From NCBI GenBank assembly GCA_965204925.1, contig OZ242021.1:1653500-1717499 (forward strand): a DNA stretch of 64,000 nt. The letters are read 5' to 3'. This document shows, one piece after another, positions 32,499-54,761 of the stretch; within the stretch, counting starts at the first letter, position 1, and each line of letters begins with the position of its first letter. A program made the translations under genes and the position numbers. The DNA is from Candidatus Poriferihabitaceae bacterium. GTDB taxonomy: Bacteria > Pseudomonadota > Gammaproteobacteria > Arenicellales > Poriferihabitantaceae. The notes beneath the pieces are model-generated. The model was not told where the DNA came from, did not search any database, and saw only the letters and a list, made by a program, of their open reading frames with translations.

Positions 32499-33026
32499 AT
32501 GACTGTCGCCACATTTGATACACACACTGCCACGAAGACCCTGTTGGAATCCGGTTTTACGGAAGATCAGGCAGTTGCCGCTGTTTTCATGGTCCGTGAC
32601 GCAATGAATGAAAGCGTTATCACGAAGTCTGACATTGCTCAGCTTGAAGGCGGCGTGAAGTCTGATATTGCTCAGCTTGAGAGCAGTGTGAAGTCTGACG
32701 TGGCGCAGCTTGAGAGTAGCATGAATACACGCATGTCGCAGTTTGAAGGCGGCGTGAAGTCTGATATTGCTCAGCTTGAGAGCAGTGTGAAGTCTGACGT
32801 GGCGCAGCTTGAGAGCAGCATGAATACACGCATGTCGCAGTTTGAAGGCGGCGTGAAGTCTGATATTGCTCAGCTTGAGAGCAGTGTGAAGTCCGACATG
32901 GTTCAGCTCGAGAGCAATATGAATTCTGGCATGTTCCAGCTTGAGAGCCGCGTGACCACCCGGCTCTATATGGTCTCGTTTGGTGTCGTCGCCACTACCG
33001 TTGGATTGTTGAAGTTGCTTGAGTGA
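32499..33026 (+). CDS. DUF1640/CCDC90-like coiled-coil membrane protein with tandem repeats
   Basis: FDTH...K.L..SGFTEDQA head, TKSD neck, ten 11-aa repeats, C-terminal TM helix. Confidence 0.8.
   Translation: MTVATFDTHTATKTLLESGFTEDQAVAAVFMVRDAMNESVITKSDIAQLEGGVKSDIAQLESSVKSDVAQLESSMNTRMSQFEGGVKSDIAQLESSVKSDVAQLESSMNTRMSQFEGGVKSDIAQLESSVKSDMVQLESNMNSGMFQLESRVTTRLYMVSFGVVATTVGLLKLLE
32625..32954 (+). repeat. Coding tandem repeat: 10 x 33 bp with a 99 bp higher-order unit
   Basis: Units KSDIAQLESSV / KSDVAQLESSM / NTRMSQFEGGV recur almost identically at the DNA level. Confidence 0.92.
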
Positions 33027-38476: not shown

Positions 38477-38827
38477 ATGAGTGGCAAGCAAAGGGATATG
38501 TTTGTCGGGAAGCGAAAAGACCCTGAAGATACGAGACGGAGCAGGATTCCAGGGCTGCTGGATGCGGTTCCAGCGGTAAACTCAACGGGAACCGGCCGAC
38601 GCATAGCTTCTCGAAAGTCAAAAAAGCTCATCGCTTTTGGATGGTATGGCGGCAAATACTCTCATCTTGATTTTTTGATCCCGCTGCTACCTGGCGATGC
38701 CACGCACTTCTGTGACGTGTTCGGTGGGTCGGCGGCAGTCCTGATGAATGCCGGCCCTTATCCAGTCGAGACTTACAACGCACGACTTGCTTCTGGAACA
38801 GAATTTTTGATATTTCCCGGAACATGA
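38477..38827 (+). pseudogene. DNA adenine methylase (Dam/D12 class) N-terminal fragment
   Basis: FGWYGGK, DVFGGSAAV, VETYN; similarity ends near 38780; no DPPY motif. Confidence 0.85.
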
Positions 38828-40913: not shown

Positions 40914-40990
40914 CGGTTATGGTATGCTCCGACCGCCCCTTTCCGAAAGTTACCCCTTAAGAGAGAAAGCAACCGGAGCGTGACTGAAAA

Positions 40991-43900
40991 ATGACCATTC
41001 CGACCATTTTCGAGACCTGCCGACCCCGTTCCGACATACTGCAAGGGGCGGTGAAGGATGAAGATTTCGCGGCTGACCTGGCGCAGGTAATCCGTGGCGC
41101 GGGGTCTGCCGAGTATCTGGACGCCACCCGCTTCTTTGCCAACACATACCCGACCAGGGGATTGCAGAACCTTCTTGCCAATGTCTGCGCGCGGTTGAGT
41201 GGTTCAGGCAATGCCGTCGCTTCCATTTTCCGGCTCGACACTTCTTACGGAGGCGGCAAGTCACATGGACTGATCGCGCTTTGCCACGCCGCGAGACGCG
41301 GGCATGAGACGCCAGACATGGAAGAATTTGTCGACCCCGGGCTGATTCCCCGAGGGCCGGTACGGATTGCCGCTTTTGACGGCGAGAACGCGGACCCGTC
41401 CAATGGGCGTAAAATGGAAGAGGGGTGTCTGGCGTACACTCCATGGGGGGAAATCGCCTGGGCGCTGGGTGGCAAGGATGGCTACGAGCGGGTGCGGGCC
41501 AGTGACGAGAATCGCATTGCGCCGGGCGCCGAAACCCTGCGCGAGCTGTTCGGCGGTGAACCGGTTCTCATCCTTCTGGATGAACTGTCGGTCTATCTTC
41601 GCAAAGTGCGGGGTATGGAGCACGCGCGGGAGCAGCTGACCGCGTTTCTGACCGCCCTGTTCAAGGCGGTCGAAAGCGCGCCCGATGCTGTTCTCGTCTA
41701 TACCCTTGCGGTCGGCAAGGATGGAACGTCTGCCGACGCCTACAGGGAAGAAAATCTGTTCATCGCGGACAAGATGGCCGAGGCAGAAAGCGTTTCGGCG
41801 CGCAAGGCGACGCTTCTGAACCCTACGGAAGAGGACGAAACGGTACAGGTGCTGCGGCGGCGATTGTTCGGGAGCATTGATGAGTCCGCCGCAAGGGACG
41901 CAGCCGATGCCTATCGAAAACTCTGGAATGACCATCGTGACAGTCTTCCCGCGAATGCCGCCGGATCTGAAACCGGCGAGGAGTTTGTGGCCAGCTACCC
42001 CCTGCATCCGGAGGTTCTGGCGACCCTGACCGCCAAGACATCCACCCTGGGAAATTTTCAGCGGGTGAGAGGTATGCTGCGCCTTTTGGCGCGTACCGTC
42101 TCACAGCTTTGGCGGGAGCGACCGGATGACGCCACCGCCATTCATCTGCATCACATTAACCCCGGATTCGAACCGGTTCGACAGGAGATACTGACACGCC
42201 TCGGTCAATCCGCCTTTGCGCCGGCTATTTCCAATGACATCTCCGCGGCGGCCAGGGACAGGCCTTCACTGGCAGAGAGTATCGACGCACAACTTCATCG
42301 TGGATTGCCGCCGTTTACCGCATATGTCGCTCGTACCATATTCATACATACACTCGCCTTCAATGAGCGTCTGAAGGGAATATCCCCCGAGCAACTGCGT
42401 TATTCGATATTGGGACCGCGGGTCGATATCAGCTTCATCGAGGATGCGCGCAAAAAATTCATCGAAGAGTCGGCCTATCTGGATGATCGCCCCGGTGTGT
42501 TGCTGAGCTTCCGGGCCGAGGCCAACCTGAGCCAAATGATCAAGCGCGTGGAAGATCGTGTCGATGCCGAGGAGACGCGCACCGAGCTGCGCGACCGCAT
42601 CGGCCGTATATTTGACGGCAAGGAGTTCCGTGAAGCGCTGTTTCCGGGCGGTCCGTATGAGGCGCCGGACGACATCGGCGATGCTCGTCCGCAGCTGGTT
42701 ATCATGGGCTACGATGCCACGAATGTCGGTGAGTTCGTGGATTCCGTACCGGAATTGGTGGCGCGTATTTTTACGAGAACGGGGGCCGAGGGCGGCGCGT
42801 TAAGAAAATTCCGCAATAATCTGGTATTCGTGGTCGCCGATGAGGGACGCAAGCAGGCAATGCAACGCAGGATAGTGCGGCGGTTCGCGTTGCGGGAGAT
42901 GAAGCAACCGGAAACCTTAAGCGGGCTGGCAGAGTACCAGCAGGACAAGGTGCGCGAACTGGACGCGCGCTCGGAACAGGAGCTCGCGCTGGCTATTCAG
43001 CAATGCTACCGGCATGTATTTTACCCGTCCCGCAACCGTATCGGTACAAGCAATGTCGATCTGGCGCATACGGCGATTGATCTTGATTCCGGTTCCGCGC
43101 AGCCGGGCAAGGGACAAACGCACATCGTGCGCGTATTGCGCAGTCTGAGCAAACTGCGCTTGCCCGAAGATGAGCCGGATTCCCCCGCATATGTGCGTGA
43201 CCGCACGCCGCTGAAAAAACATGGACAGATTTCGGTAAGGTCGTTGCGCGACGAGTTTCGCGCCGACCCGGCCTTGCCGATGCTGGTCGGGGATGAGGTA
43301 TTCGTTCGCGGGATAAGAACAGGCATTGAGCAGGGCGAGTATGTGTATCGGCGCGGAGACTTGATTTATGGGCCGGGCGACCCCGGTGTCGGCATTGACA
43401 TTGACGAACAGTCGATGATTTTCACGATGGCTTTCGCGAAGGAGAAGGGTCTGTGGCCGCGCCCGCCGGCCGTTGCGCCCGCGCCCGAGCCGGCTGCGGC
43501 CGATCAGGTTGCAGACGCGGCGGCAGGCGGATGGGCAGCAGCCCCTCGCCCATGCGGGCCTGATGACCCGCAAACTCCCGCAGAGACTGCAACTTCGCTG
43601 GATTGCGAAGGGCCGCTTCGTGAAGCGCTGGTGCGTCTTTGGGAAAAGGTTCGCGCGTACAAGGTGGATGCCATTGCGGGTTTGAATATTCGTATGTTCG
43701 ATGCTCTTGACGCCTTTCCTCTGATTAGCGTGGTGGGCGCCATCTCCGGGGCGGACAAGACTGTCACCATAAATGGCGGCTACGAGACCCCTGCGGGCGG
43801 GGAGTTGCGGCTGGATTTCCGGGGCTGTGCAGCCGACGCGCAACCGTTGCGGGAATTTCTTGAGCCGCAACTGCGGGCCGCCGGCGCCGGTTCTGCGCAA

Positions 43901-44038
43901 TTCGAGGTCGGTTTCGAGCTGGTGTTCGCGGGCGGATTGTCAATGAAGGGGCAGGATGCAGAGAAACTGACTGAACGACTGAGTCGGTATGCCAGCGGCG
44001 CCGCCCATGTTTCCAGTACTGTGGACACCGCAAAGTAG
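40991..44038 (+). CDS. DUF499 family ATPase
   Basis: FAADL, FFANTYPT.GL, Walker A YGGGKSH, Walker B LILLDE, YPLHPE, FQRVRGMLR. Confidence 0.9.
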   Translation: MTIPTIFETCRPRSDILQGAVKDEDFAADLAQVIRGAGSAEYLDATRFFANTYPTRGLQNLLANVCARLSGSGNAVASIFRLDTSYGGGKSHGLIALCHAARRGHETPDMEEFVDPGLIPRGPVRIAAFDGENADPSNGRKMEEGCLAYTPWGEIAWALGGKDGYERVRASDENRIAPGAETLRELFGGEPVLILLDELSVYLRKVRGMEHAREQLTAFLTALFKAVESAPDAVLVYTLAVGKDGTSADAYREENLFIADKMAEAESVSARKATLLNPTEEDETVQVLRRRLFGSIDESAARDAADAYRKLWNDHRDSLPANAAGSETGEEFVASYPLHPEVLATLTAKTSTLGNFQRVRGMLRLLARTVSQLWRERPDDATAIHLHHINPGFEPVRQEILTRLGQSAFAPAISNDISAAARDRPSLAESIDAQLHRGLPPFTAYVARTIFIHTLAFNERLKGISPEQLRYSILGPRVDISFIEDARKKFIEESAYLDDRPGVLLSFRAEANLSQMIKRVEDRVDAEETRTELRDRIGRIFDGKEFREALFPGGPYEAPDDIGDARPQLVIMGYDATNVGEFVDSVPELVARIFTRTGAEGGALRKFRNNLVFVVADEGRKQAMQRRIVRRFALREMKQPETLSGLAEYQQDKVRELDARSEQELALAIQQCYRHVFYPSRNRIGTSNVDLAHTAIDLDSGSAQPGKGQTHIVRVLRSLSKLRLPEDEPDSPAYVRDRTPLKKHGQISVRSLRDEFRADPALPMLVGDEVFVRGIRTGIEQGEYVYRRGDLIYGPGDPGVGIDIDEQSMIFTMAFAKEKGLWPRPPAVAPAPEPAAADQVADAAAGGWAAAPRPCGPDDPQTPAETATSLDCEGPLREALVRLWEKVRAYKVDAIAGLNIRMFDALDAFPLISVVGAISGADKTVTINGGYETPAGGELRLDFRGCAADAQPLREFLEPQLRAAGAGSAQFEVGFELVFAGGLSMKGQDAEKLTERLSRYASGAAHVSSTVDTAK

Positions 44039-44041
44039 GCC

Positions 44042-44518
44042 ATGCGTATGCGACTCATGGACGGCGTGACGACCGCAAGCGCCACCCCCCGCTATGAACT
44101 GCGGGTGCGGCGGCATGGGCCGGCGGATAGCGCGTACGAGATTTGGCAGTTGCCGGCTCCCGCCTCGCCGCATGTGAAAAGCGCGCAACGGGTGGCGGGC
44201 CTGAGAGGACGCAATCTGGATATGGTGGAGCGCCGTGTGCTCAAAAGGCTTGCGCAAGGAGGTGTCAAACCGGGCATGAAGGCTGGTTGCGGGGAATCGG
44301 GTTACGCATTGGGTGAGGACATGGCGCTTGTACTGGGACTGCTTTTTCGTACCCTGGCGCCGATGCGAAGTCGTGATAACATGCGCGCGGTTACGCAAGG
44401 GATCGAAGCGATGGAGCATGAGGAAGCGGCGTACTGGTTGGGCATGGCCATGCACCGCAAGCATCCGCGCCGGGCGCTGGCGGCGCTGCGTTGTCTGTTG
44501 ACGGAACCGGGGCGGTAG
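44042..44518 (+). CDS. Small accessory protein of the DUF499 system (occupies the DUF3780 position)
   Basis: 3 bp after the ATPase stop; LGLLF..LAP, EEAAYWL..A, AALR.LL pattern; family inferred from position. Confidence 0.7.
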   Translation: MRMRLMDGVTTASATPRYELRVRRHGPADSAYEIWQLPAPASPHVKSAQRVAGLRGRNLDMVERRVLKRLAQGGVKPGMKAGCGESGYALGEDMALVLGLLFRTLAPMRSRDNMRAVTQGIEAMEHEEAAYWLGMAMHRKHPRRALAALRCLLTEPGR

Positions 44519-44588
44519 GAGCGCATTATGTGCATTACCGAATGTCCATATCATGTCATTGGCAAAAGACAAATAAGGCGAAAACACC

Positions 44589-45214
44589 ATGAGAGAGCCA
44601 AGAAATATTGCAGTGGACAGAAGTCTCAACGAGGAGTCCGGTGAGAATGTAACCTCGGTTGGAGAATCACAAGGAGGGCCACAACATGTCCCGTACTTGC
44701 CGACAGCCCGGCAGTATGAGGCTTTGATCAACCGGGCATTGATCACGGACAGGCAGACGACAGAGCACAATACGCCCGACAAGACGGCATATCAGCAAAC
44801 AATTTCTCTTGATTCCACCAGAAAATATGACCAGATTGTCCCTGTACCGGATTTCCGCCAGCGGTGAGAGCCAAACCTTGTATGAGCACGTTTCGTGCAT
44901 TACAGGAATGGGAAGGGTATGTCGTTGAAATTAGAGAGGATGAGTTTGTTGCCAGATTGGTCGATTTGACGGCGGGAAAAAAATATGAAAGCGAAGAAGC
45001 GGTTATTCCTATGGTCGAAATCTCTGATCATGACGCATCCCGTATAGCCATCGGCAGCATTTTTCGGTGGGTGATCGGCTATGAACGCTCTCCCGAAGGA
45101 ACCCGGAAGCGAGTATCGCAGATCGTTTTTCGGGATCTGCCCAGAATGACCGAAAAGGATTTTGCGGATGGAAGAGAGTGGGCCAAAGGAATTCTGGCAG
45201 CTTTCGATATGTGA
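44589..45214 (+). pseudogene. Hypothetical protein with LQEWEGYV..FRWVIGY beta-rich domain, probably one frameshifted gene
   Basis: ORFs 44589-44867 and 44864-45214 join as VPDF-PPAVRAKP if one T is added to the T run at 44852-44854; the downstream ORF could also be expressed alone. Confidence 0.6.
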
Positions 45215-46298
45215 AAACCATGGAGGAGCCGCCGCGAGACTGCGAAATCGAATTGACACTTCTTGGTCCCGGCTATGGTGAAAGTATCCTGATTCATATC
45301 GGTGATGGTAAATGGGTCATCGTCGACTCTTTTCCTGATTCTGACGAACGGCCGGTAGCCTTGGGGTATCTGGAAGAGATTGGTGTTGATCCTGCACAAG
45401 CCGTTGTGTTGATTGTGGCAACGCACTGGCATGACGATCACATTCGTGGTATCTCGCAGTTAGTCGAACGATGCTCTGTGGCAGAATTTTGCTGTGCAAG
45501 CGCTCTGTGCCGAAAGGAGTTCCTGACTCTGGCGGGGGCGCTGGAAGGCCGGCATTTTTCCGCTTCGGGTTCCGGGCTGCGTGAATTGTACAGTGTGTTC
45601 TCCTACCTGAAATCAGCGAGGAGAAAGCCGGCATACGCAATCGCCAATCGTATGATCTACCAAACTCAGGCTTGCTCTGTTTGGTCACTTTCCCCGAGTG
45701 ATGAGATTTTTCAGTCCTTTTTGCAGTCTGTGCAGTCCCTGATTCCTGGCGCAGGTGACGGAAAAACAATAATTCCGTCCCTTTCTCCCAATAAGGCTGC
45801 GGTTGTGTTGTGGGTGAGTTTTCAGCGCTTCTCGCTTCTGCTTGGGGCGGATTTGGAAAGAAGGGGGTGGCAACTGATCTCAATAACGGGATGTGTCCCG
45901 CGGGTAAGGCATCGGTATTCAAAATCCCTCATCATGGCTCAGGCAATGCCGACGAACAGGGTATATGGAACCGGCTGCTGGAGCCAGCGCCATATGCGGT
46001 TTTGGCTCCCTGGCATCGGGGCGGCCATGTTTTGCCAACAGCACAGGATATTCATCGTATTTGTATTTCCACTCCCAACGCTTACGCATCCGCCAGGACA
46101 ACACAACAAGCCCGTTCCGGTTCCGGTCGCACAACAGGGATGGTGGCAAAGACTCTGCGGGAAACGGATGCCCGGGTCTATTCGCTGCCTGCTAAAGTCG
46201 GTTCTGTGCAATTACGGCATCCTCTGGCTTCCACAACAACCCGGTGGTCGGTCGCATTGTCCGGAGATGCGCATCGTCTCAAGCAAACTGCAGATTAG
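45211..46298 (+). pseudogene. ComEC/Rec2-like MBL-fold hydrolase, frameshifted
   Basis: GYGES, VDS, THWHDDH, LGADLE in one frame; KIPHHGS and the C-terminus in another; 1-nt loss near 45880. Confidence 0.85.
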
Positions 46299-46350
46299 TG
46301 TCGCCGAAAGATACTCGACTGATTGAAGCTGGCTGCCGGTCGCGGAGGGT
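46298..46350 (+). repeat. Degenerate copy of the DUF1156 gene 5' end
   Basis: GAAAGATACTCGACTGATTGAA at 46306-46327 is identical to 47478-47499; GCTGGCTGCCG follows in both, with one C missing in this copy. Confidence 0.92.
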
Positions 46351-46354
46351 GTAG

Positions 46355-46573
46355 GGAGAGCGTGCGTGGTTTTCCGATTCCTCGACAACCGAAAAGCACA
46401 AATTCCACGATAAACTTACTTTCGGGCGCCCGGATGGTTCAACGAATCCGTTGTTTTGCCCCTGGCGCGGGAAGATATCTCATCAGACTTTACGGTTGCA
46501 TTTTTCATGGCCTGTTGGTGTCGGGGAGGAGATTTATATCGTTTATGCCGGACCCAAAATCACAAGGCGGTAA
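46355..46573 (+). pseudogene. Start-less 3' remnant of a gene with a RelE-like C-terminal domain
   Basis: Manual translation GERAWFSDSSTTEKHKFHDKLTFGRPDGSTNPLFCPWRGKISHQTLRLHFSWPVGVGEEIYIVYAGPKITRR*; not in the ORF track. Confidence 0.6.
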
Positions 46574-46576
46574 GAG

Positions 46577-46619
46577 ATTGTCAGGTATTGCTTGACAATA
46601 TCTCCGGGTATGGTAGCTT
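46577..46619 (+). promoter_or_regulatory. higBA promoter and operator
   Basis: TTGACA (46592-97)-N16-TAGCTT with TG extension; inverted repeat ATTGTCA-N9-TGACAAT (46577-46599) over the -35. Confidence 0.7.
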
Positions 46620-46626
46620 TGCGGTC

Positions 46627-46906
46627 GTGATCAGCAGTATTCGGCATAAGGCGTTACGGGTTTACTGGAGCAAGGGGCAAAGGCGAGGATTGAATAGCGA
46701 ATGGATACAAAAACTTCGGCGGATTCTGTCAGCTCTGGAAGCTGCCGAGCGGCCTGATCACATGAACTATCCCGGATCGTAACTTTCACTTACTGAAGGG
46801 GGGCGGGGCGGGGCGCTATGCCGTTCGTTTGACCGCCAACTATCGCGTGACCTTCGGGTGGGATGGAGACAGCGCCGTGGATGTGGACATAGAGGACTAC
46901 CACTAA
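46627..46906 (+). pseudogene. higB: HigB (RelE/ParE family) toxin, disrupted
   Basis: ISSIRHKALR..RRILSALEAA..PGS then TAA at 46780; continues in the +1 frame as FHLLKG..GRYAVRLTANYRVTF..VDIEDYH*. Confidence 0.9.
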
Positions 46907-47214
46907 TGATCGAAAGACATCCTTCCGTAGAACCTGTGCACCCCGGGGAGGTCTTGCGCGAGGATATTATGCCGGTACTTTCCCTGAACAAGACAGCCGT
47001 AGCCGATGCTCTCGGGATATCCCGACAAACGTTGTACGGTATCCTGAACGAGAAGCAGCCGGTTACCGCCGGCATGGCGGTGCGGTTTGGCAAGCTGTTC
47101 GGCAATGGTGGTATTTTTTGGATGAATCTGCAACGCAACCATGACCTCGCGGTCGCAGAGCGCACGGTAGATGTGTCGAGAATACAGACTGTTGAGGCAC
47201 AGGTCGGGAAATGA
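46906..47214 (+). CDS. higA: HigA antitoxin (XRE HTH)
   Basis: PVHPGEVLRED, ADALGISRQTL..ILNE, FWMNLQ..HDL; TAATG coupling to higB. Confidence 0.93.
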   Translation: MIERHPSVEPVHPGEVLREDIMPVLSLNKTAVADALGISRQTLYGILNEKQPVTAGMAVRFGKLFGNGGIFWMNLQRNHDLAVAERTVDVSRIQTVEAQVGK

Positions 47215-47261
47215 AGAATACAGTTACCGGGATTTACGTTCCTGGTGGCGCCTGCCAACGA

Positions 47262-47395
47262 CCACTCCCCTCTTGACGGGGAGTCAGGAAGCCAGAGGCT
47301 ACAGCCCGCCGACCGGCGGGGATACGTACCTGCTTATCCTGCCGCCGAATCATCCTGCGAACCGGCTTCTTCGACTCCCCCGGCAAGGGGAGTGG
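47262..47395. repeat. REP/MITE-like palindromic element
   Basis: CCACTCCCCTCTTGACGGGGAGTCAGGAAGCC ... GGCTTCTTCGACTCCCCCGGCAAGGGGAGTGG: imperfect terminal inverted repeats of about 32 bp, each itself a hairpin. Confidence 0.75.
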
Positions 47396-47472
47396 CGGGT
47401 ATATGCAGAATATAATGCGGACGCGCAGGGGCGCCCCTGCGGGATCATTAAACCATGGTACATGGTATTGTC

Positions 47473-50466
47473 ATGAGGAAAGATACTCGACTGATTGAAC
47501 GCTGGCTGCCGATTGCGGAACTGGGCATAGAGAGCACGCGCGAGCGCACCCCCATGACGCCTTATCCCGCTCCCAACCGCCTGCATGTCTGGTGGGCGCG
47601 GCGGCCGCTGGTGGCGTCGCGCGCCGCTATTCTGGCGTCGCTGCTGCCGGCGGACGCGGACCGTGATCGGTTTCTGCATGTGTTGGGCATTCATGGGGAT
47701 CCGGTGGCAGCGCGTAGAAGACTTGATGCTGCCAAAAAAACCGGGGAGAACCTTGGCCCTGACCCCTATGGTTACAAACGCACATTTTCCTATTCGCCGA
47801 CCGGATGCGATATTGAGTGGGTCGAAGATGTATCCAGCAACAAGGCATCAAGCATCTCGGTTCTGGACCCGACTGCCGGTGGAGGCAGTATTCCAATAGA
47901 AGCGAGTCGTCTCGGGGTCACAGCCTTTGCAAACGACCTGAATCCAGTGGCCGCCTTGATTCTCAGAGCCACAATTGAATGGCCCGCTCGGCATGGTTCT
48001 CAACTGCTATCCGAATTTAACGAACTGGCCGCCGAATTTTTACATCGGGCTGAACCAAAATATCAGGAAATTTTCCCAATGGAGCCGGAAGACAGTCGGG
48101 TTGACGGCTACCTCTGGGCCCGCACAATCACCTGTCCGTACTGTTCCGGTCTGGTGCCGTTGTCGCCGAACTGGCGTCTGGCGCCGGGCGGTATCGGGGT
48201 GCGGTTGAAGCCGGACCCGGGCGCGGGGCCGGGGTCGCAGGGTCGGGTCTGTGCGTTTGAAATTGTGGGAAATGCCGGGGAGCAGTCGGAGGGGACAGTG
48301 GCGCGCGGGGATGGCGCCTGTCCCTGGCCCGATTGCGGCCGCGTCATCGACGGAGATGAAATCAAGCGGCAGGCCCAATCGGGCCGGATGGGTGAGCAGT
48401 TGTATGCCATTGTCTATAAAAAACGGATCAGGACAACCCTGAAGTCGGGCAACCGGGGCAAGGACAAGTGGGCGCGCGGCTATCGGGCTCCCGCGCCTGA
48501 AGACGACAACAGCGCGGACATCGCGGCGCGGCTGGCCGGGAAACTGCCGGAATGGGAGGCGCTGGACAGGGCGCCGAGTGAGAAAATTCCGGATGGCAAC
48601 AAGACCACGGAACCCCAGCGGTACGGCATGCCATACTGGCGCGATTTGTTTTCAGCGCGTCAGCTTCTCTGCCACGGTACCAGCGTCGAAGTCTTTCAGG
48701 AGATGCTGGAGGCCGACCGCAAGGACGGCAAGCTGACCGATGCGCGGCGGGCGGCGTATGGGTATTTGGCATTCGTTATTGATACGTTGCTTGACTACAA
48801 CAATAGATGCAGCGTGTGGGACAACACAATCGGTCGCGTGCGGCACATATTTGCTCGTCATGATTTTGCTTTCATATGGTCCTACGCCGAGATGTCGCCT
48901 CTGGTGACCGGCGTTGGGTATGACTGGGCCATCGAAAAGACCGCCAAGTGCATCCGGGAACTCATATCGCTGTTGCGACCGGACGCGGGCGGCAAGGGCG
49001 GCAGCCGCGACCGGCCCCTGCTCGAAAACGAATATACACCGCCTCCGATTACCATCTCCTGCAAGTCCGGCGACAGCCTCGACCATATCGAAGACGGCAG
49101 TATGGATGCCGTGGTCATGGACCCGCCCTATTACGACAACGTCATGTATGCCGAGCTTTCCGACTTCTTCTATGTCTGGCTCAAGCGCACGGCGGGACAT
49201 GTCTTCCCGGAACTCTTCCGCAGAAATCTCACCGACAAGGAAAGCGAGGCGGTCGCCAACCCGGCGCGGTTTCGGGGGATAAGGGGCGCGAAAGCCCTGG
49301 CCGGCCTCGACTACCGGGAACGCATGGCGTCAATCTTTGCGGAATGCCGCCGGGTCTTGAAAAAAGATGGCATCCTGACGCTGATGTTCACACACAAGGC
49401 GGCCGGCGCCTGGGATGCCCTGGCCAAGGGCCTGATGGAAGCCGGATTCATCGTTACGGCATCGTGGCCGATCAATACCGAGGCGGAGGGCAGCCTGCAT
49501 ATCCGCAACAAGGCGGCGGCCAACAGTACGATTTTCCTGGTATGCCGGCCACGCCCCGTCAAGTCCGCTGACGGTCAAAACCGCTATTGGGAGGATGTCG
49601 AGCCGCAGGTCGCCGCGCAGGTGCGGTCAAGGATTGCGGGATTCCAGGAGGCGGGAATTTCCGGGGTTGACCTCTATCTCGCGTCCTTCGGCCCGGCCCT
49701 TGAGGAATTTTCGCGCCATTGGCCGCTCAGGCGCGGGACGCCGGGCAAGAAGCCGGAGGTATCGCGCGGACGTCAAGCCGGAACGGTTGCCGATGAAGAG
49801 TGGGATCCGTATGCCGTTACCCCGGAAGACGCCCTGAATGTCGCGCGCCGCGAAGTCAAGTCGCAGCGGCTTGAGTCATTGACGCGCAGCGAGGCGAACG
49901 AGGATATGGACCCGGCGACAGCCTTCTTCGTTCTGGCATGGGATGCCTTCCGGGCGCCGGAATTTCCCTATGATGAGGCGCTCAAGCTGGCCCGGGCAAT
50001 CGGCGCCGACCTTGATCGGGACATCCTGGGCAGGTTGGCGCACAAGAAAAACAAGGACATTGTACTGTTAAGCAGTGTGCAGCGGGCGGCCATGGGAACG
50101 CTGGGCCCGGTTGACGGCGCGCGCGGGGTCATTGACAGCATCCATCATGGGGCGCGCCTGGCGCGCACGCGCTCTCTGGCTGCAGCCAGGGATTTCCTCG
50201 GGGAAGCGCAAATACATCGGGGCGACAAGCGGTTCACCACGGCCATGAAGGCGGTACTGGAAGTGTTGCCGGTCGGCAGAACCCTGGCGGTCGGTCCGCG
50301 ATCGGATAGCGACAGGGTCAGCGCCGACGGTGGCGCGCAGCCTGGCGGCCGGATGGAGGAATTCGGCAGTGACTTCGAGGCGCTGTATCACCTGTCGCGC
50401 CTGATTTCCGGGGAGCGGTTCGAGGAGCCGAAACAATTCGATTTTCTGCAGGACGGAATTTCCTGA
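47473..50466 (+). CDS. DUF1156 family DNA adenine methylase
   Basis: LHVWWARRPL, DPTAGGGSIP (SAM binding), NDLNPVA, CPYC..CPWPDC Zn ribbon, DPPYYDN. Confidence 0.92.
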   Translation: MRKDTRLIERWLPIAELGIESTRERTPMTPYPAPNRLHVWWARRPLVASRAAILASLLPADADRDRFLHVLGIHGDPVAARRRLDAAKKTGENLGPDPYGYKRTFSYSPTGCDIEWVEDVSSNKASSISVLDPTAGGGSIPIEASRLGVTAFANDLNPVAALILRATIEWPARHGSQLLSEFNELAAEFLHRAEPKYQEIFPMEPEDSRVDGYLWARTITCPYCSGLVPLSPNWRLAPGGIGVRLKPDPGAGPGSQGRVCAFEIVGNAGEQSEGTVARGDGACPWPDCGRVIDGDEIKRQAQSGRMGEQLYAIVYKKRIRTTLKSGNRGKDKWARGYRAPAPEDDNSADIAARLAGKLPEWEALDRAPSEKIPDGNKTTEPQRYGMPYWRDLFSARQLLCHGTSVEVFQEMLEADRKDGKLTDARRAAYGYLAFVIDTLLDYNNRCSVWDNTIGRVRHIFARHDFAFIWSYAEMSPLVTGVGYDWAIEKTAKCIRELISLLRPDAGGKGGSRDRPLLENEYTPPPITISCKSGDSLDHIEDGSMDAVVMDPPYYDNVMYAELSDFFYVWLKRTAGHVFPELFRRNLTDKESEAVANPARFRGIRGAKALAGLDYRERMASIFAECRRVLKKDGILTLMFTHKAAGAWDALAKGLMEAGFIVTASWPINTEAEGSLHIRNKAAANSTIFLVCRPRPVKSADGQNRYWEDVEPQVAAQVRSRIAGFQEAGISGVDLYLASFGPALEEFSRHWPLRRGTPGKKPEVSRGRQAGTVADEEWDPYAVTPEDALNVARREVKSQRLESLTRSEANEDMDPATAFFVLAWDAFRAPEFPYDEALKLARAIGADLDRDILGRLAHKKNKDIVLLSSVQRAAMGTLGPVDGARGVIDSIHHGARLARTRSLAAARDFLGEAQIHRGDKRFTTAMKAVLEVLPVGRTLAVGPRSDSDRVSADGGAQPGGRMEEFGSDFEALYHLSRLISGERFEEPKQFDFLQDGIS

Positions 50467-50468
50467 GC

Positions 50469-53400
50469 ATGCTTGTCGAGCATAAATGGCGGGTGAAGTA
50501 TACCTCCAGTCATGGCGACCTCGTGCGCCTGTTTTACCTGCCCGCCCTCAGGCAAGCGCGGCGCTATGACCGGCTGACGGGTTACTTCAATGCCGGCGCC
50601 CTGACCCTCGCGGCGCGCGGGATTGAACACCTGGCGCGCAACGACGGACGCATGCGGCTTGTGACAGGGTGCACGCTGGCTCAGCCGGAAATCGACGCGA
50701 TCGAAAAGGGCGAGCGCCTGCGCAGCCAGATCGAACGGCATCTGGGCGCGGCGCCCCTTGTTCCACCGGACGCCGCGTCCAGGGACGCCCTGGAATTGCT
50801 GGCGTGGATGGTGCAATACGGGTTTCTCGAGGTGCGGGTTGCGGTGCCCTGCGGCGCGGATGGCAAGCCAATCCCCGAGGATGGCATCTTCCATGAGAAA
50901 GCGGGGATCATTGAAGATCGGGCGGGGCATAAAATTGCCTGGACCGGAAGCCTGAATGAGACCAGCGCCGGCTGGCGCCACAACTGGGAGAGTTTCAGCG
51001 TGTTTACCAGCTGGGCGGACAGGGAAAGAGTGGATGAGGAGGAAGCCAATTTTCTGCGCATATGGGGCGGCGGTTCTGCAAATTTTATCGTGGTGGATGT
51101 GCCGCAAGCCGTACGGGACGATTTATTGCGGTTTATGCCGGCCGCGGACCCGGTTCGTCTTGCGCATGCAGAAATTGAGCGGCCGCCGCCTGCCTCCCGG
51201 GCGGCGGAGTCGCCGGCGATAACAGATACGGCGCCGCAAGCGCCCCGGTCGGAATGGAAGAGGCGTCGGGTCTGGACCTTGATCCGCGAGGCGCCGGCAT
51301 GGGCGGACAGCGGCGAACAAATCGGCGAGGCAACCTGTGCGGTCAATCCCTGGCCGCATCAGGTGAAGGCCCTGCAACGCCTGTACCGCAGCTGGCCGCC
51401 CAGACTGCTGATTGCCGATGAGGTCGGGCTGGGCAAGACTATTCAGGCCGGCTTGCTGTTGCGCCGGGCGTGGCTGGCGGGACATGCCAGACGGATTTTG
51501 ATTCTGGCGCCGAAGGCGCTGCTCGGACAGTGGCAAATCGAACTGCGCGAGAAGTTTAATCTCAACTGGCCAATTTATGATGGCAATGAGCTGGTATGGT
51601 ATGAATCGCCGGCGCTGCGCGGGCGCAATACACGCAGGGTTGACCGCGACGCCTGGCATCACGAGCCGGTCGTGCTCGCTTCCAGCCAGCTGATGCGCCG
51701 CCGCGAACGAACGGCGGCGTTGCTTGAGCGGGCGGAGCCCTGGGATCTGGTGATTCTGGATGAAGCGCACCATGCCCGTCGGCGGGGCGCCGGCAGTGAT
51801 GTGGAAGGAGGCCCCAACCACCTGCTCAGGCTGATGCAGGGTTTGCAGAAAAAGACACAGGGGCTGGTTCTGTTGACGGCGACTCCGATGCAGGTGCACC
51901 CGATAGAGGTCTGGGATTTGCTGAATCTTCTCGGCTTGCCGCCGCAATGGAGTGAAAGCGGATTTCTGGACTTTGTCAAAACTGTCGCGATACCCGCTCC
52001 AGAGCCGCAGGCGTTTGAGCAAATGGCCCGGCTGTTCCTTTCGGCAGAACAGGCCTACGGCGCAACCGGCGTCGAAAGCGCGGTAAGCATCACCAAGTTA
52101 TCCGGAATCATAACCGGCCATATACTCGCAGCGCTGCGCGACCCCAGCACGATACCGCGCCGGCAATTGCCGCCGCAGCAGCGCCGCGCCGCCGTCAAAA
52201 TCATGCAGGCCAACACGCCGATGCGGCGGTTGGTATCGCGCCATACGCGCCAACTGTTACGCCGGTACTTGCGCGTGGGGATGTTGTCGACGCGGATTGC
52301 CGAGCGCAAGGTCAAGGATCGATTCCTGAAAATGTCACGACCGGAACGGGCGCTGTACGATGCGGTCGAGGATTACATTTGCGAGACTTGGAAGCGGGCC
52401 AGCCAGGAGAAAAAAACCGCTGTGGGATTCGTCATGACGATCTATCACCGGCGGCTGGCGAGCAGTTTCACCGCGTTGCGCAAGACCCTGGAGAAAAGGC
52501 GGGCGGCGCTCGCGGCCGGCCGGTGCGAGGAGCCATTGATCCACGCGGATGACATCGAGGAGGACAGCCTGGAGGAGGAGTTCAGCGACCCTGACGATAC
52601 CGGCAAACTGGCAAGCATGGCGCTGGCCAGTGAAGAGCAGGCTGAAATTGATTACCTGCTGGCGCGCATCGAACAACTGCCGCCCGATACCAAACTGGAG
52701 GCGCTGCGGAAGGTTCTGCGGTCATTGTTTGCCGACGGGTATCGGCGGGTGATGGTGTTCACGCAATATGCGGACAGCATGGATTTTCTGCGCGAGGAAT
52801 TGGGTCGGCATGGAGCATGGCGGATAATGTGCTTTTCCGGCCGCGGCGGAGAGGTGGACGCAAGTGATGGTTCGTGGAAACAGATTAGCCGGGACGATGT
52901 CAAACGGCGGTTTCGGGATGCTGAAGCGGATATCCTGTTATGCACGGACGCCGCGGCGGAGGGCTTGAATTTCCAGTTCTGCGGCGCCCTGGTAAATTAT
53001 GATATGCCGTGGAACCCGATGCGGGTAGAACAGCGTATCGGGCGTATTGACCGCTTGGGGCAGGAAAGTGAAACCATCCGTATCGTCAACCTGCACTATG
53101 AGGATACGGTCGAAACCGATGTGTATCAGGCGCTGGAAAATCGTATTGATCTGTTTCAGTCCGTGGTCGGCAGATTGCAACCCATACTGGCCCGTGTGCC
53201 GCAAGCCATCAAGCAGTCTGTGCTTTCCGGGGCGAGCCGTGAACCCGGCGAGCGTAAGAAGATAGTGGATGTACTGGAGCGCGCAGTGAGCGATTCCGGG
53301 GGCGGGGAGATTAATTGGGATGAGGTGACGGAAAGCGATATCGACATGCCGGCGCGCCCCGATTCACCGATCAAGATGAAGGACCTGGATCGGGTGATCA

Positions 53401-53648
53401 ATAGCGCTGAACTGAGGCCGCAAGGCGTCTGCGTCCAGCCGCTCGGGAAACGGGAATACAGCCTGCTGGCGCCGGGCATGGACGAGCCGTTACGGGTGAC
53501 GACGGACCCGTCCTATTACGAGAAACATGCCGAACATGTGGAACTGTGGTCACCCGGCAATCCCCTGTTCGTAGCGCCTGAATTTGACGGGGTACCCGCA
53601 GAGTCCATCCGGGGCAAGACGTTGCGGGATATTCTGGATGGAGGATGA
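50469..53648 (+). CDS. PLD-nuclease / SNF2 helicase fusion
   Basis: GYF, HEK.G..ED..GSLNET (PLD); ADEVGLGKT, DEAH, LTATP, PWNPMRVEQRIGRIDRLGQ. Confidence 0.92.
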   Translation: MLVEHKWRVKYTSSHGDLVRLFYLPALRQARRYDRLTGYFNAGALTLAARGIEHLARNDGRMRLVTGCTLAQPEIDAIEKGERLRSQIERHLGAAPLVPPDAASRDALELLAWMVQYGFLEVRVAVPCGADGKPIPEDGIFHEKAGIIEDRAGHKIAWTGSLNETSAGWRHNWESFSVFTSWADRERVDEEEANFLRIWGGGSANFIVVDVPQAVRDDLLRFMPAADPVRLAHAEIERPPPASRAAESPAITDTAPQAPRSEWKRRRVWTLIREAPAWADSGEQIGEATCAVNPWPHQVKALQRLYRSWPPRLLIADEVGLGKTIQAGLLLRRAWLAGHARRILILAPKALLGQWQIELREKFNLNWPIYDGNELVWYESPALRGRNTRRVDRDAWHHEPVVLASSQLMRRRERTAALLERAEPWDLVILDEAHHARRRGAGSDVEGGPNHLLRLMQGLQKKTQGLVLLTATPMQVHPIEVWDLLNLLGLPPQWSESGFLDFVKTVAIPAPEPQAFEQMARLFLSAEQAYGATGVESAVSITKLSGIITGHILAALRDPSTIPRRQLPPQQRRAAVKIMQANTPMRRLVSRHTRQLLRRYLRVGMLSTRIAERKVKDRFLKMSRPERALYDAVEDYICETWKRASQEKKTAVGFVMTIYHRRLASSFTALRKTLEKRRAALAAGRCEEPLIHADDIEEDSLEEEFSDPDDTGKLASMALASEEQAEIDYLLARIEQLPPDTKLEALRKVLRSLFADGYRRVMVFTQYADSMDFLREELGRHGAWRIMCFSGRGGEVDASDGSWKQISRDDVKRRFRDAEADILLCTDAAAEGLNFQFCGALVNYDMPWNPMRVEQRIGRIDRLGQESETIRIVNLHYEDTVETDVYQALENRIDLFQSVVGRLQPILARVPQAIKQSVLSGASREPGERKKIVDVLERAVSDSGGGEINWDEVTESDIDMPARPDSPIKMKDLDRVINSAELRPQGVCVQPLGKREYSLLAPGMDEPLRVTTDPSYYEKHAEHVELWSPGNPLFVAPEFDGVPAESIRGKTLRDILDGG

Positions 53649-53756
53649 GGCGCCAAATCCCCCGGCGCCGGGAAGCGTCGCATCCGGTTCGCCGGGCATC
53701 GCCGGCTCTTGCGCCTGTTCGCTCAGATCTCCGCTTCCCGGTCGCGGGTATGCGGG

Positions 53757-54761
53757 CTATCCGATTTTCGCCAGCGCCTTGTCCGGGGTCAGTCGGGTCA
53801 TGCAGTGGTGGTGTCGCAGCGGGCATTGTCGTTGAAAACACGGGCTGCATTCGAGAGCGAGATTCAACAGGTCGGCGCGGGCGGTCAACGGCGGGGTAAA
53901 GCCCGCGCTGGTCGCTCCGTACAGGGCGATTACGTGCCTGCCTGTAGCGGCGGCGACATGCATCAGCCCGGAGTCATTGGTCACGACAGAACGGGCGCAG
54001 GAAATCAGGTCCACGACTTCTTCAAGGCGGGTCTGTCCGCTCAGATCGATGCAAGCGTCTGCGCTCAAGTGATTGATCTGGCGGGCGACCGGCTGATCGT
54101 TTTTAGCGCCAAAAATCCAGACCTGCCAGCCTGCCCTGATTTTGCTGCGGGCGACTTCGGCAAAATACTCGGCAGGCCAGCGCTTGGCAGGGCCGAACTC
54201 CGCTCCCGGGCAAAACGCCAGCACCGGTTTTTCGAGTGTCAATCCCAGCCGCGAGCGGGTTGCCTGTAGCTGCTCGCGGTCGATCTGCAATGCCGGATAC
54301 GGCGGCGCCCCGGAAATCGTCTGTCCCCTGTCGATGCCAAGCGCCGCGTAACGCTGCACATGCAAGGGCATTGCGCGGGCATCCAGGCGCCGGATATCGT
54401 TCAGTAATCCCCAGCGTTGTTCGCCGACATACCCGGTGCGTTTGACAATGCCGGCAAACCAGGGGATCAGCGCCGACTTGAAAGACCCCGGCAATACGAT
54501 GGCCTGGTCGAAGCGATACTGGCGGATGTCTCGCGCCAGCCTCCTGCGGACGCCGAGTTGAAGCCTGCCGTGTCCGACCGGCATTTCGATGGTTGCATGG
54601 ACTTCGGGCATTCTTTGCAGAATCGGCTGACTCCATGCGGGCGCCAGTACCGTGATGCGGGTTTTTGCGGAAGCGGCCTTGATGATCTTGAACAGGCTCT
54701 GCGCCATCACCATATCTCCGACCCAGGAAGGGCCAACCACAAGCAGCCGCCGCTCAGCCAT
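53757..54761 (-). CDS. waaF: LPS heptosyltransferase II
   Basis: VGPSWVGDMVMAQ, PGAEFGPAKRW, NDSGLMHVAAA; start at ATG 54761. Confidence 0.93.
   Translation of the reverse strand: MAERRLLVVGPSWVGDMVMAQSLFKIIKAASAKTRITVLAPAWSQPILQRMPEVHATIEMPVGHGRLQLGVRRRLARDIRQYRFDQAIVLPGSFKSALIPWFAGIVKRTGYVGEQRWGLLNDIRRLDARAMPLHVQRYAALGIDRGQTISGAPPYPALQIDREQLQATRSRLGLTLEKPVLAFCPGAEFGPAKRWPAEYFAEVARSKIRAGWQVWIFGAKNDQPVARQINHLSADACIDLSGQTRLEEVVDLISCARSVVTNDSGLMHVAAATGRHVIALYGATSAGFTPPLTARADLLNLALECSPCFQRQCPLRHHHCMTRLTPDKALAKIG

What the first reader, a model, noticed from the sequence alone, without database searches (positions are those of the whole stretch)
46298..47511. Dead duplicate of the methylase 5' end brackets the higBA segment: trace of stacked cassette acquisition
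Seen: the 22-mer GAAAGATACTCGACTGATTGAA occurs at 46306 and 47478, followed by GCTGGCTGCCG in both. The upstream copy starts with a GTG overlapping the MBL stop (TAGTG), reads SPKDTRLIE-WLPVAE versus RKDTRLIERWLPIAE, has lost one C and breaks off after about 50 bp. Inference: the MBL module was once directly coupled to a DUF1156 gene. A second segment ending in a fresh DUF1156 start then came in by recombination at the gene's 5' end, or a tandem copy collapsed by deletion. Either route would let the operon accumulate cargo with no integrase in view.
Basis: partly seen in the sequence, partly recalled or inferred. Interest (0 to 1): 0.7.

Follow-up and report, generated by a model that had tools for sequence, protein, structure and literature searches.

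The report
Gene-stub scars of stacked defence cassettes
A broken copy of the first 60 or so bases of a DNA-methylase gene sits between the remains of two different gene cassettes inside a predicted anti-phage operon, and the same kind of leftover recurs in related operons of other bacteria, likely marking how these operons add cassettes by recombination without a dedicated enzyme.

Summary
The repeat is real (22 of 22 bases; 93% over 42) and not an assembly error: contigs from two samples cover the stub without differences, one across both copies. It lies in the cargo slot of an intact MANTIS-like operon (DUF499, DUF7680, DUF1156 methylase, PLD-SNF2). higBA and a dispersed repeat are probably later additions. 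Such scars recur: 12 of 60 related closed slots carry a DUF1156 5' or DUF7680 3' stub. 14 of 34 junctions between cassettes carry one, against 0 of 118 junctions within cassettes. Several joints show 8-10 nt microhomology. Best reading: additive recombination between two alleles, then erosion by deletion; the exact route is not resolved. A short-contig metagenome set showed no stubs (0 of 61). Embedded defence systems and displacement arrays are published; I found no paper on these scars. This scan noted similar stubs before in Hma loci on other DNA.

The parts
40991..44038 (+). DUF499 AAA+ ATPase (MtsA-like), intact, 1015 aa
   Evidence: PF04465 E 4e-37; PADLOC HmaC and DUF499; GGGKS at 87 and LLDE at 195
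44042..44518 (+). DUF7680 small subunit in the MtsB position; left wall of the cargo slot
   Evidence: PF24728 E 3e-42; model with 4 strands and 5 helices, pLDDT 85.5
44547..44576 (+). 3' remnant of the first gene (TIGR04255-like, about 235 aa in relatives) of cassette 1; the rest is deleted
   Evidence: aligns with the end of that gene in L030; family name is an automatic Atlas cluster name, score 0.96 with low recognition
44589..45214 (+). Two small ORFs (92 aa and about 110-116 aa) of cassette 1, no family hit
   Evidence: the second is about 50-75% identical in many related slots
45220..46298 (+). MBL-fold gene of cassette 1, frameshifted near 45,860-45,895; ancestral stop TAG at 46296-46298
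   Evidence: PF00753 E 4e-10; two HSPs to the intact 356-aa L058 protein
46298..46367 (+). Dead DUF1156 5' stub (the scar); clear match 46306-46347; joint to nsnC lies within about 46347-46367
   Evidence: (profile positions 1-61, E 3e-4)
46355..46573 (+). 3' tail (about 70 codons) of Menshen nsnC: remnant of cassette 2
   Evidence: PADLOC NsnC 250-319 of 319, E 4e-28; 69-84% nucleotide identity to six relatives
46627..46906 (+). higB-like toxin gene broken by one extra base near 46780
   Evidence: alignment with the G003 copy; 71% to the G005 N-terminus; higB label rests on position before higA and on recall, no family hit
46906..47214 (+). higA antitoxin, intact
   Evidence: TIGR02607, 85.5 bits over cut-off 47.7
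47247..47394 (.). Dispersed intergenic repeat with inverted hairpin ends (MITE-like), with relatives elsewhere in the genome
   Evidence: 15 further BLAST pieces at 77-93%; terminal word found 13 times on both strands
47473..50466 (+). DUF1156 adenine methylase (MtsC-like), intact; second repeat copy at 47478-47511; right wall of the slot
   Evidence: PF06634; DPTAGGG at 132 and DPPY at 550
50469..53648 (+). PLD nuclease-SNF2 helicase (MtsD-like), intact
   Evidence: PLDc_2, SNF2 and Helicase_C; NF042964 379 bits, under its cut-off of 1100

Best explanation
The stub is a dead copy of the DUF1156 start lying at the seam between two decayed cargo cassettes, and it is likely the scar left when a second allele of the operon recombined in additively. 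Shown: the DUF7680-DUF1156 slot holds one of a few recurrent cassettes, each of which also occurs alone between the two genes, and stacked loci carry DUF1156 5' and/or DUF7680 3' pieces at the seams. Inferred: incoming DNA carrying the other cassette pairs by homology on one side (in DUF1156/SNF2 or DUF499/DUF7680). Its other end is joined at a short microhomology near the slot wall, so the old cassette is kept instead of replaced. Long duplicated pieces would collapse or erode, leaving 20-300 nt stubs. In this window later deletions would have removed most of Menshen and the first gene of cassette 1, and higBA and the repeat probably inserted afterwards. The stub itself is predicted to have no function.
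For: Slot variability: 57 of 60 closed slots exceed 150 nt (median 3.1 kb), whereas 4 of 81 DUF499-DUF7680 gaps and 6 of 44 DUF1156-SNF2 gaps exceed 40 nt. Scars: 14 of 34 short between-cassette junctions (13 of 32 without the window) against 0 of 118 within-cassette junctions, and 0 of 34 by matrix on the reverse strand. 12 of 60 other closed slots carry one. DUF1156 pieces in 411,935 slot bases fall off from the start: 14, 10, 6, 5, 3, 2, 2, 1, 0 at offsets 0-192, all on the coding strand. Chimeric seams join a DUF1156 start to a DUF7680 or DUF499 end (L042, L068, L091). L068 is a four-part stack with a scar at each seam and intact DUF1156 and SNF2. Overlaps of 8-10 nt at 3 of 8 joints displayed (L068, L042, L081). 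In L081 the stub carries a different allele motif from the intact gene. No tyrosine or serine recombinase among 32 window ORFs or 83 of 99 unassigned slot ORFs (one per cluster). Analogy: T6SS immunity arrays (PMC5361080 passages).
Against: 20 of 34 between-cassette junctions show no scar at the strict threshold (a few show 15-20 nt traces by eye). The metagenome set gave 0 stubs in 61 closed slots, 45 of them empty; its contigs are short and its loci more distant. 5 of 8 displayed joints show no clean overlap or were out of register, and the window's own joint is off register by 2 nt. The first 36 nt of the stub match the locus's own gene best in 5 of 7 valid cases, which a distant anchor does not predict and a crossover or conversion at the start does. 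The test for flanks travelling with their cassette was weak: only the last 200 nt of DUF7680 beat the shuffle for the first cassette (0.44 against 0.30), and no gradient appeared on the DUF1156 side. PMC5361080 notes that this kind of recombination is far rarer than plain replacement. Interior DUF1156 windows were not all zero (5 hits at offset 2304, 3 at 1008). No precursor allele was found.
Confidence: 0.55

Rival explanations
1. A whole second operon allele landed in tandem (cointegrate, or ectopic crossover between two copies in one genome) and a later deletion between microhomologies removed DUF1156-SNF2 of the first copy and DUF499-DUF7680 of the second. The product is the same as in the best reading.
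For: DUF1156 stubs sit 80-330 nt before a DUF499 start in L049 and L101, and L101 reads DUF499, deleted DUF7680, cassette, DUF499 3' stub, DUF7680. Some genomes hold two operons with different cassettes (L026 and L027 on one chromosome). Internal deletions are common in these slots.
Against: No locus among the 160 fetched shows two complete operons in tandem within the 10-kb flanks; L049 has no DUF499 in 15 kb upstream of its DUF7680 stub.
Confidence: 0.2
2. A small circle carrying a cassette and a DUF1156 start integrated by one crossover inside the shared 22-33 bases, giving two att-like copies and rebuilding the gene with a new start.
For: The window's 18-mer is matched 18 of 18 only by its own gene; the 58 others reach at most 17, median 14. 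The own gene is the unique best match over the first 36 nt in 5 of 7 valid stubs, and in L081 the sequence then switches allele type.
Against: Does not explain seams with only a DUF7680 3' stub (L029, L030, L045, L059). L042 and L082 stubs are not closest to their own genes. Kinship of donor and host or later gene conversion gives the same signal. No circle junction was seen in 3 runs.
Confidence: 0.17
3. One-off local event: an in-place duplication, a target-site duplication of a mobile element, or an assembly error.
For: Stub and intact gene share rare codons; a MITE-like repeat lies inside the unit.
Against: Contigs confirm the sequence. The two segments hold different cassettes, each known as a single filling elsewhere. 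Scars recur in hosts of several phyla by record title. No transposase in the unit.
Confidence: 0.05
4. A dedicated site-specific recombinase acting in trans uses the DUF1156 start as an attachment site, as in integrons.
For: Cassettes are discrete, co-oriented and recur in one slot. Two joints from different hosts (L042, L091) fall near the same codons.
Against: Joints are scattered from about base 20 to 300 of DUF1156. The DUF1156 start and DUF7680 end share 8-mers in 34 of 59 loci (58%), inside the 13-78% range of 24 interior control windows. No integrase nearby; the whole genome was not screened for recombinases.
Confidence: 0.03

Closest known systems
MANTIS / Gao_RL / Type-2 DUF499-centred BREX-related system (bioRxiv 10.64898/2026.09.23.753747; PMC12839542)
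   Same: Four genes in the order ATPase, small subunit, N6-methylase, PLD-SF2 helicase, with the catalytic motifs present.
   Different: Small subunit is DUF7680, not DUF3780; NCBIfam equivalog scores are under cut-off. Term searches in the MANTIS text found no 'recombination', 'hotspot' or 'DUF7680'.
[quoted passage not shown]
   Same: Septu, Menshen-type and other cassettes lodged between core genes on the same strand.
   Different: That study allowed at most three embedded genes, excluded systems with pseudogenes or repeated core genes, and gives no route of insertion ('recombination' 0 hits). Here several cassettes stack with core-gene stubs at the seams.
Displacement arrays of T6SS effector-immunity and Rhs modules (PMC5361080)
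   Same: Arrays grow without an integrase, proposed to be by homology-facilitated illegitimate recombination, leaving orphan gene pieces.
   Different: There the variable 3' part of a toxin gene is displaced and immunity genes are kept. Here whole multi-gene defence cassettes stack between two different core genes and both walls leave stubs.
Minimal mobile elements of Neisseria (as described in PMC3787668)
   Same: Variable gene content between conserved flanking genes, exchanged by homologous recombination.
   Different: The passages read describe replacement; here exchange is at times additive and scarred, and the same cassettes occur across phyla.
Integrons (recalled; also discussed in PMC5361080)
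   Same: Ordered array of interchangeable co-oriented cassettes in one slot.
   Different: No integrase, no fixed joint; seams are variable pieces of the flanking genes.

Membership tests
MANTIS / Type-2 BR | DUF499 AAA+ ATPase | tested here: met
   PF04465; Walker motifs; NF042962 hit but 205 bits against cut-off 1200
MANTIS / Type-2 BR | N6-adenine methylase with motif I and DPPY | tested here: met
   PF06634; DPTAGGG and DPPY
MANTIS / Type-2 BR | HKD/PLD nuclease fused N-terminally to an SF2 helicase | tested here: met
   PLDc_2 at 137-199, SNF2, Helicase_C; HEK...GSLN and DEAH
MANTIS / Type-2 BR | Standalone DUF3780 gene (by family model) | tested here: not met
   No PF12635 match in G000; the gene is PF24728 DUF7680. 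Filed as MANTIS-like, not as a member.
MANTIS / Type-2 BR | Small subunit homologous to DUF3780 by fold | tested here: inconclusive
   hhalign probability 0.2 against a 2-sequence alignment; model has 4 strands and 5 helices as PMC12839542 describes for DUF3780; no PDB match at E 0.001
MANTIS / Type-2 BR | Hemimethylation of a short site and phage restriction needing all four genes | not testable with these tools
   Needs methylome data and phage assays
Embedded defence cassettes (Payne 2024) | Known defence systems between core genes, same strand | tested here: met
   NsnA/B/C, PtuA/B, ThsB and AbiLi hits in related slots; window holds the nsnC tail
Menshen | NsnA, NsnB and NsnC together | tested here: not met
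   Complete in L026; only the last 70 codons of nsnC remain in the window, so it is a remnant
Displacement array by homology-facilitated illegitimate recombination | Additive array with orphan pieces of the conserved gene at seams | tested here: met
   14 of 34 against 0 of 118 junctions; L068 stack
Displacement array by homology-facilitated illegitimate recombination | Short microhomology at the non-homologous joint | tested here: inconclusive
   8-10 nt at 3 of 8 displayed joints; window joint off register
Displacement array by homology-facilitated illegitimate recombination | One homologous anchor, RecA dependence | not testable with these tools
   Needs experiments; the indirect flank test was weak
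Integron | IntI tyrosine recombinase next to the array | tested here: not met
   None among 32 window ORFs from 30.6 to 63.3 kb or 83 slot ORFs
Integron | attC sites between cassettes | not tested
   No attC model was run; seams were identified as gene pieces instead

The most novel reading that the evidence does not exclude
The DUF7680-DUF1156 slot is an integrase-free cassette array shared across phyla in one habitat: a small common pool of defence cassettes (Menshen, Septu, TIR-SLOG, STAND, AbiL-like and an uncharacterised TIGR04255-like/MBL system) is stacked by ordinary recombination at the gene walls, and the stubs are reusable homology handles that let cassettes be added, dropped or re-ordered. 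The scars would then give cassette boundaries and order of arrival directly from sequence.
Probability: 0.25. Interest if true: 0.7.

Novelty: new variant of a known kind. Interest (0 to 1): 0.48.

Why it matters
Defence systems embedded in other defence operons are common, and the study that named them leaves their origin open. The scars turn that into a testable question: they predict additive recombinants at the slot walls, short microhomology joints and no integrase. They also mark cassette boundaries, which points to an untested candidate system (the TIGR04255-like/MBL cassette). Screens that drop loci with pseudogenes or repeated core genes would miss these stacks. In this window all cargo except higA and two small ORFs is dead, so the locus itself is a record of the process, not an active device.

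Tried and rejected
Assembly artefact: rejected. Precursor allele joining 46327 to 47500: no such joint in 3 runs; 0 matches of the 21-mer in JGI metagenomes; five congeners lack the operon at this site, and the site is empty in G002. This shows only that it was not found. Built-in recombination site shared by the DUF1156 start and DUF7680 end: not above controls. Flanks travelling with their cassette: weak or absent. Metagenome replicate: 0 stubs in 61 closed slots. DUF7680 = DUF3780: not shown. Promoter and terminator scan of 46200-47600: nothing above shuffles. higBA as a regular slot cassette: no higB hit in the other 80 slots, and higA hits there were 34-37% on the opposite strand. Rows set aside: 21 of 81 loci had no DUF1156 downstream within the flank (L068 was later closed); 4 of 38 junctions longer than 1.5 kb were left out of the junction count; the L031 stub belongs to a different DUF1156 subfamily; L049up was out of register and one L091 comparison, and were not counted as evidence. 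My global alignment to place the MBL frameshift was too fuzzy for a single base. Literature searches without a description of such scars; most subscription journals are not covered.
Full report
Observation. The 22-mer is exact at 46306-46327 and 47478-47499, followed by the 11-mer directly in the upstream copy and after one extra C in the downstream one. The match spans 42 columns at 92.9%, E 1.5e-8 against the genome, with no third copy. Contigs of runs X1 and X2 (one sample, possibly the source) cover both copies up to 47616 with no differences. A contig from a second sample of the same study covers 45385-47127, also with none. So the stub and the frameshifts in MBL and higB are real.

Setting. 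The repeat lies in an operon of DUF499 ATPase, DUF7680, DUF1156 methylase and PLD-SNF2 helicase, all with open frames and catalytic motifs. This is the layout of MANTIS / Type-2 BR, except that the small gene is DUF7680. Its link to DUF3780 is not shown, though the predicted element count fits the published description. I call it MANTIS-like. Five congeners searched lack the operon at this site; the two flanking genes are adjacent in G002 and 1.7-11.4 kb apart in the other four.

Anatomy of the slot. Between DUF7680 and DUF1156 lie, in order: a 30-nt remnant of a TIGR04255-like gene, two small ORFs, a frameshifted MBL gene, the stub, the last 70 codons of Menshen nsnC, a higB-like gene with one extra base, intact higA and a dispersed repeat. 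The joint of stub and nsnC lies in about 46347-46367. The bases there can be read as either gene, but the register is off by 2 nt, so the exact breakpoint is not fixed.

Relatives. One search found 393 loci with a DUF7680 relative and returned the best 80; record titles span several phyla, some of which I recall as sponge-associated. Of 81 loci with the window, 60 have DUF1156 within the flank; 57 of these slots exceed 150 nt, median 3.1 kb, while the other two junctions are nearly always under 40 nt. A few cassettes recur, alone or stacked: the MBL cassette, Menshen, Septu, ATPase-STAND, TIR-SLOG-ThsB and an AbiL-like pair. The MBL cassette is last before DUF1156 in 17 of 80 loci and nsnC in 7 of 80. 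L030 is collinear with the window into its intact DUF1156. So the window holds two cassettes that each normally end at a DUF1156 start.

Scars recur. Profile tiles of the four core genes, cut at E 0.005 (best reversed-sequence control 0.016), found DUF1156 5' stubs with a full-length copy downstream in L042, L048, L068, L081, L082, L091 and L101 (the last copy broken). DUF7680 3' stubs add L029, L030, L045, L059 and L075: 12 of 60 other closed slots. A 24-nt matrix scan gave 14, 10, 6, 5, 3, 2, 2, 1, 0 hits for offsets 0-192 of DUF1156, all on the coding strand. Three of the 14 are in open slots and may be the decayed main gene; the window's stub is not among them; most interior windows gave 0 and the highest gave 5. 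Scars stood at 14 of 34 short junctions between cassettes and at 0 of 118 junctions within cassettes. L068 reads Menshen, scar, MBL cassette, scar, helicase gene, scar, Septu, then intact DUF1156 and SNF2. Against this: 20 of 34 seams have no strict scar, and 80 metagenome loci (best 80 of 369) gave 0 stubs in 61 closed slots, 45 of them empty. Short contigs and greater distance may explain part of that. Related loci are not fully independent, but the joints differ in position and cassette pair.

Mechanism. Shown: seams of the form cassette 1, DUF1156 start, DUF7680 or DUF499 end or cassette-2 sequence, with 8-10 nt overlaps at 3 of 8 displayed joints, scattered breakpoints and no recombinase among the ORFs scanned, though IS transposases occur in four slots and an IS-type HTH in a fifth. 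Inferred: a second allele joins by homology on one side and by microhomology on the other, keeping both cassettes, and deletion then trims the duplicated walls (0.55). A tandem operon collapsed by deletion gives the same product (0.2; L049 and L101 fit). A single crossover inside the shared start is favoured by the own-gene best match in 5 of 7 stubs and the unique 18-mer in the window (0.17). These three are all additive recombination between two alleles (about 0.9 together). A built-in site was not supported and the flank test was weak.

Comparison with print. Payne et al. (bioRxiv 10.1101/2024.01.29.577857; term search and parts 1-4 of 5 read) describe embedding, exclude pseudogene-bearing systems and give no insertion route. 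PMC12839542 (abstract, passages, part 1 of 2 of section 35) lists embedded effectors. The MANTIS preprint (abstract, introduction, section 12, term search) covers mechanism of the core only in what I read. PMC5361080 (passages) proposes the same kind of recombination for T6SS arrays; PMC3787668 (passages) covers replacement between conserved flanks. Eight searches found no account of such scars. I opened no supplements; those of PMC12839542 and the two preprints could show such loci. Earlier notes of this scan report similar stubs in Hma loci of other genomes and the same operon family; I did not check their loci, and they are not independent proof.

Verdict. A real, dead scar of cassette stacking in a known kind of operon. 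The locus is ordinary decay; the recurrent pattern is a modest new variant that makes the origin of embedded defence systems testable. Interest 0.48.

Noticed in passing
L058:10456-12862; L027, L033, L046, L084 and others; L185:4114-6523: A recurrent cassette (TIGR04255-like gene, one or two small ORFs, MBL-fold gene) has no system-level PADLOC match, only weak MBL hits. Congener G004 holds it intact outside any DUF499 operon, with no scar detected. Candidate defence system.
   Followed up: partly
window 40914-53760: The site between the GT2 glycosyltransferase and heptosyltransferase genes is itself variable: empty in G002, 1.7-11.4 kb of other DNA in G001, G003, G004, G005. The other fillings were not annotated.
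   Followed up: partly
window 47247-47394: MITE-like repeat with hairpin ends, about a dozen terminal words in the genome and relatives in congeners; an 18-nt perfect palindrome lies at 47424-47441.
   Followed up: partly
DUF1156 codons 15-30 across 59 loci: The N-terminus comes in two types (GIESTRERTPMTP and GEESVRERRSMTA) with mosaics between them, suggesting frequent recombination just inside the gene start.
   Followed up: partly
L047, L065, L071, L076, L078, L097, L109, L115: A second layout: DUF1156-SNF2 lies inverted upstream of DUF499-DUF7680, as two divergent units.
   Followed up: no
L043, L044, L059, L075, L081, L085 upstream of the ATPase-STAND cassette: This cassette carries its own conserved TTGAC-type promoter region with repeated CAAC boxes, and is in some loci preceded by a divergent HTH gene.
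   Followed up: no
window 38477-38827: Short fragment of a D12-class adenine methylase gene (PF02086 positions 1-38) upstream of the sulfotransferase.
   Followed up: no
window 32624-32955: 99-bp tandem repeats inside a 175-aa coiled-coil ORF.
   Followed up: no
G000:C1:2307781-2312755 (L019): A second, distant SNF2 plus methylase locus (28% to DUF1156) in the same genome.
   Followed up: no
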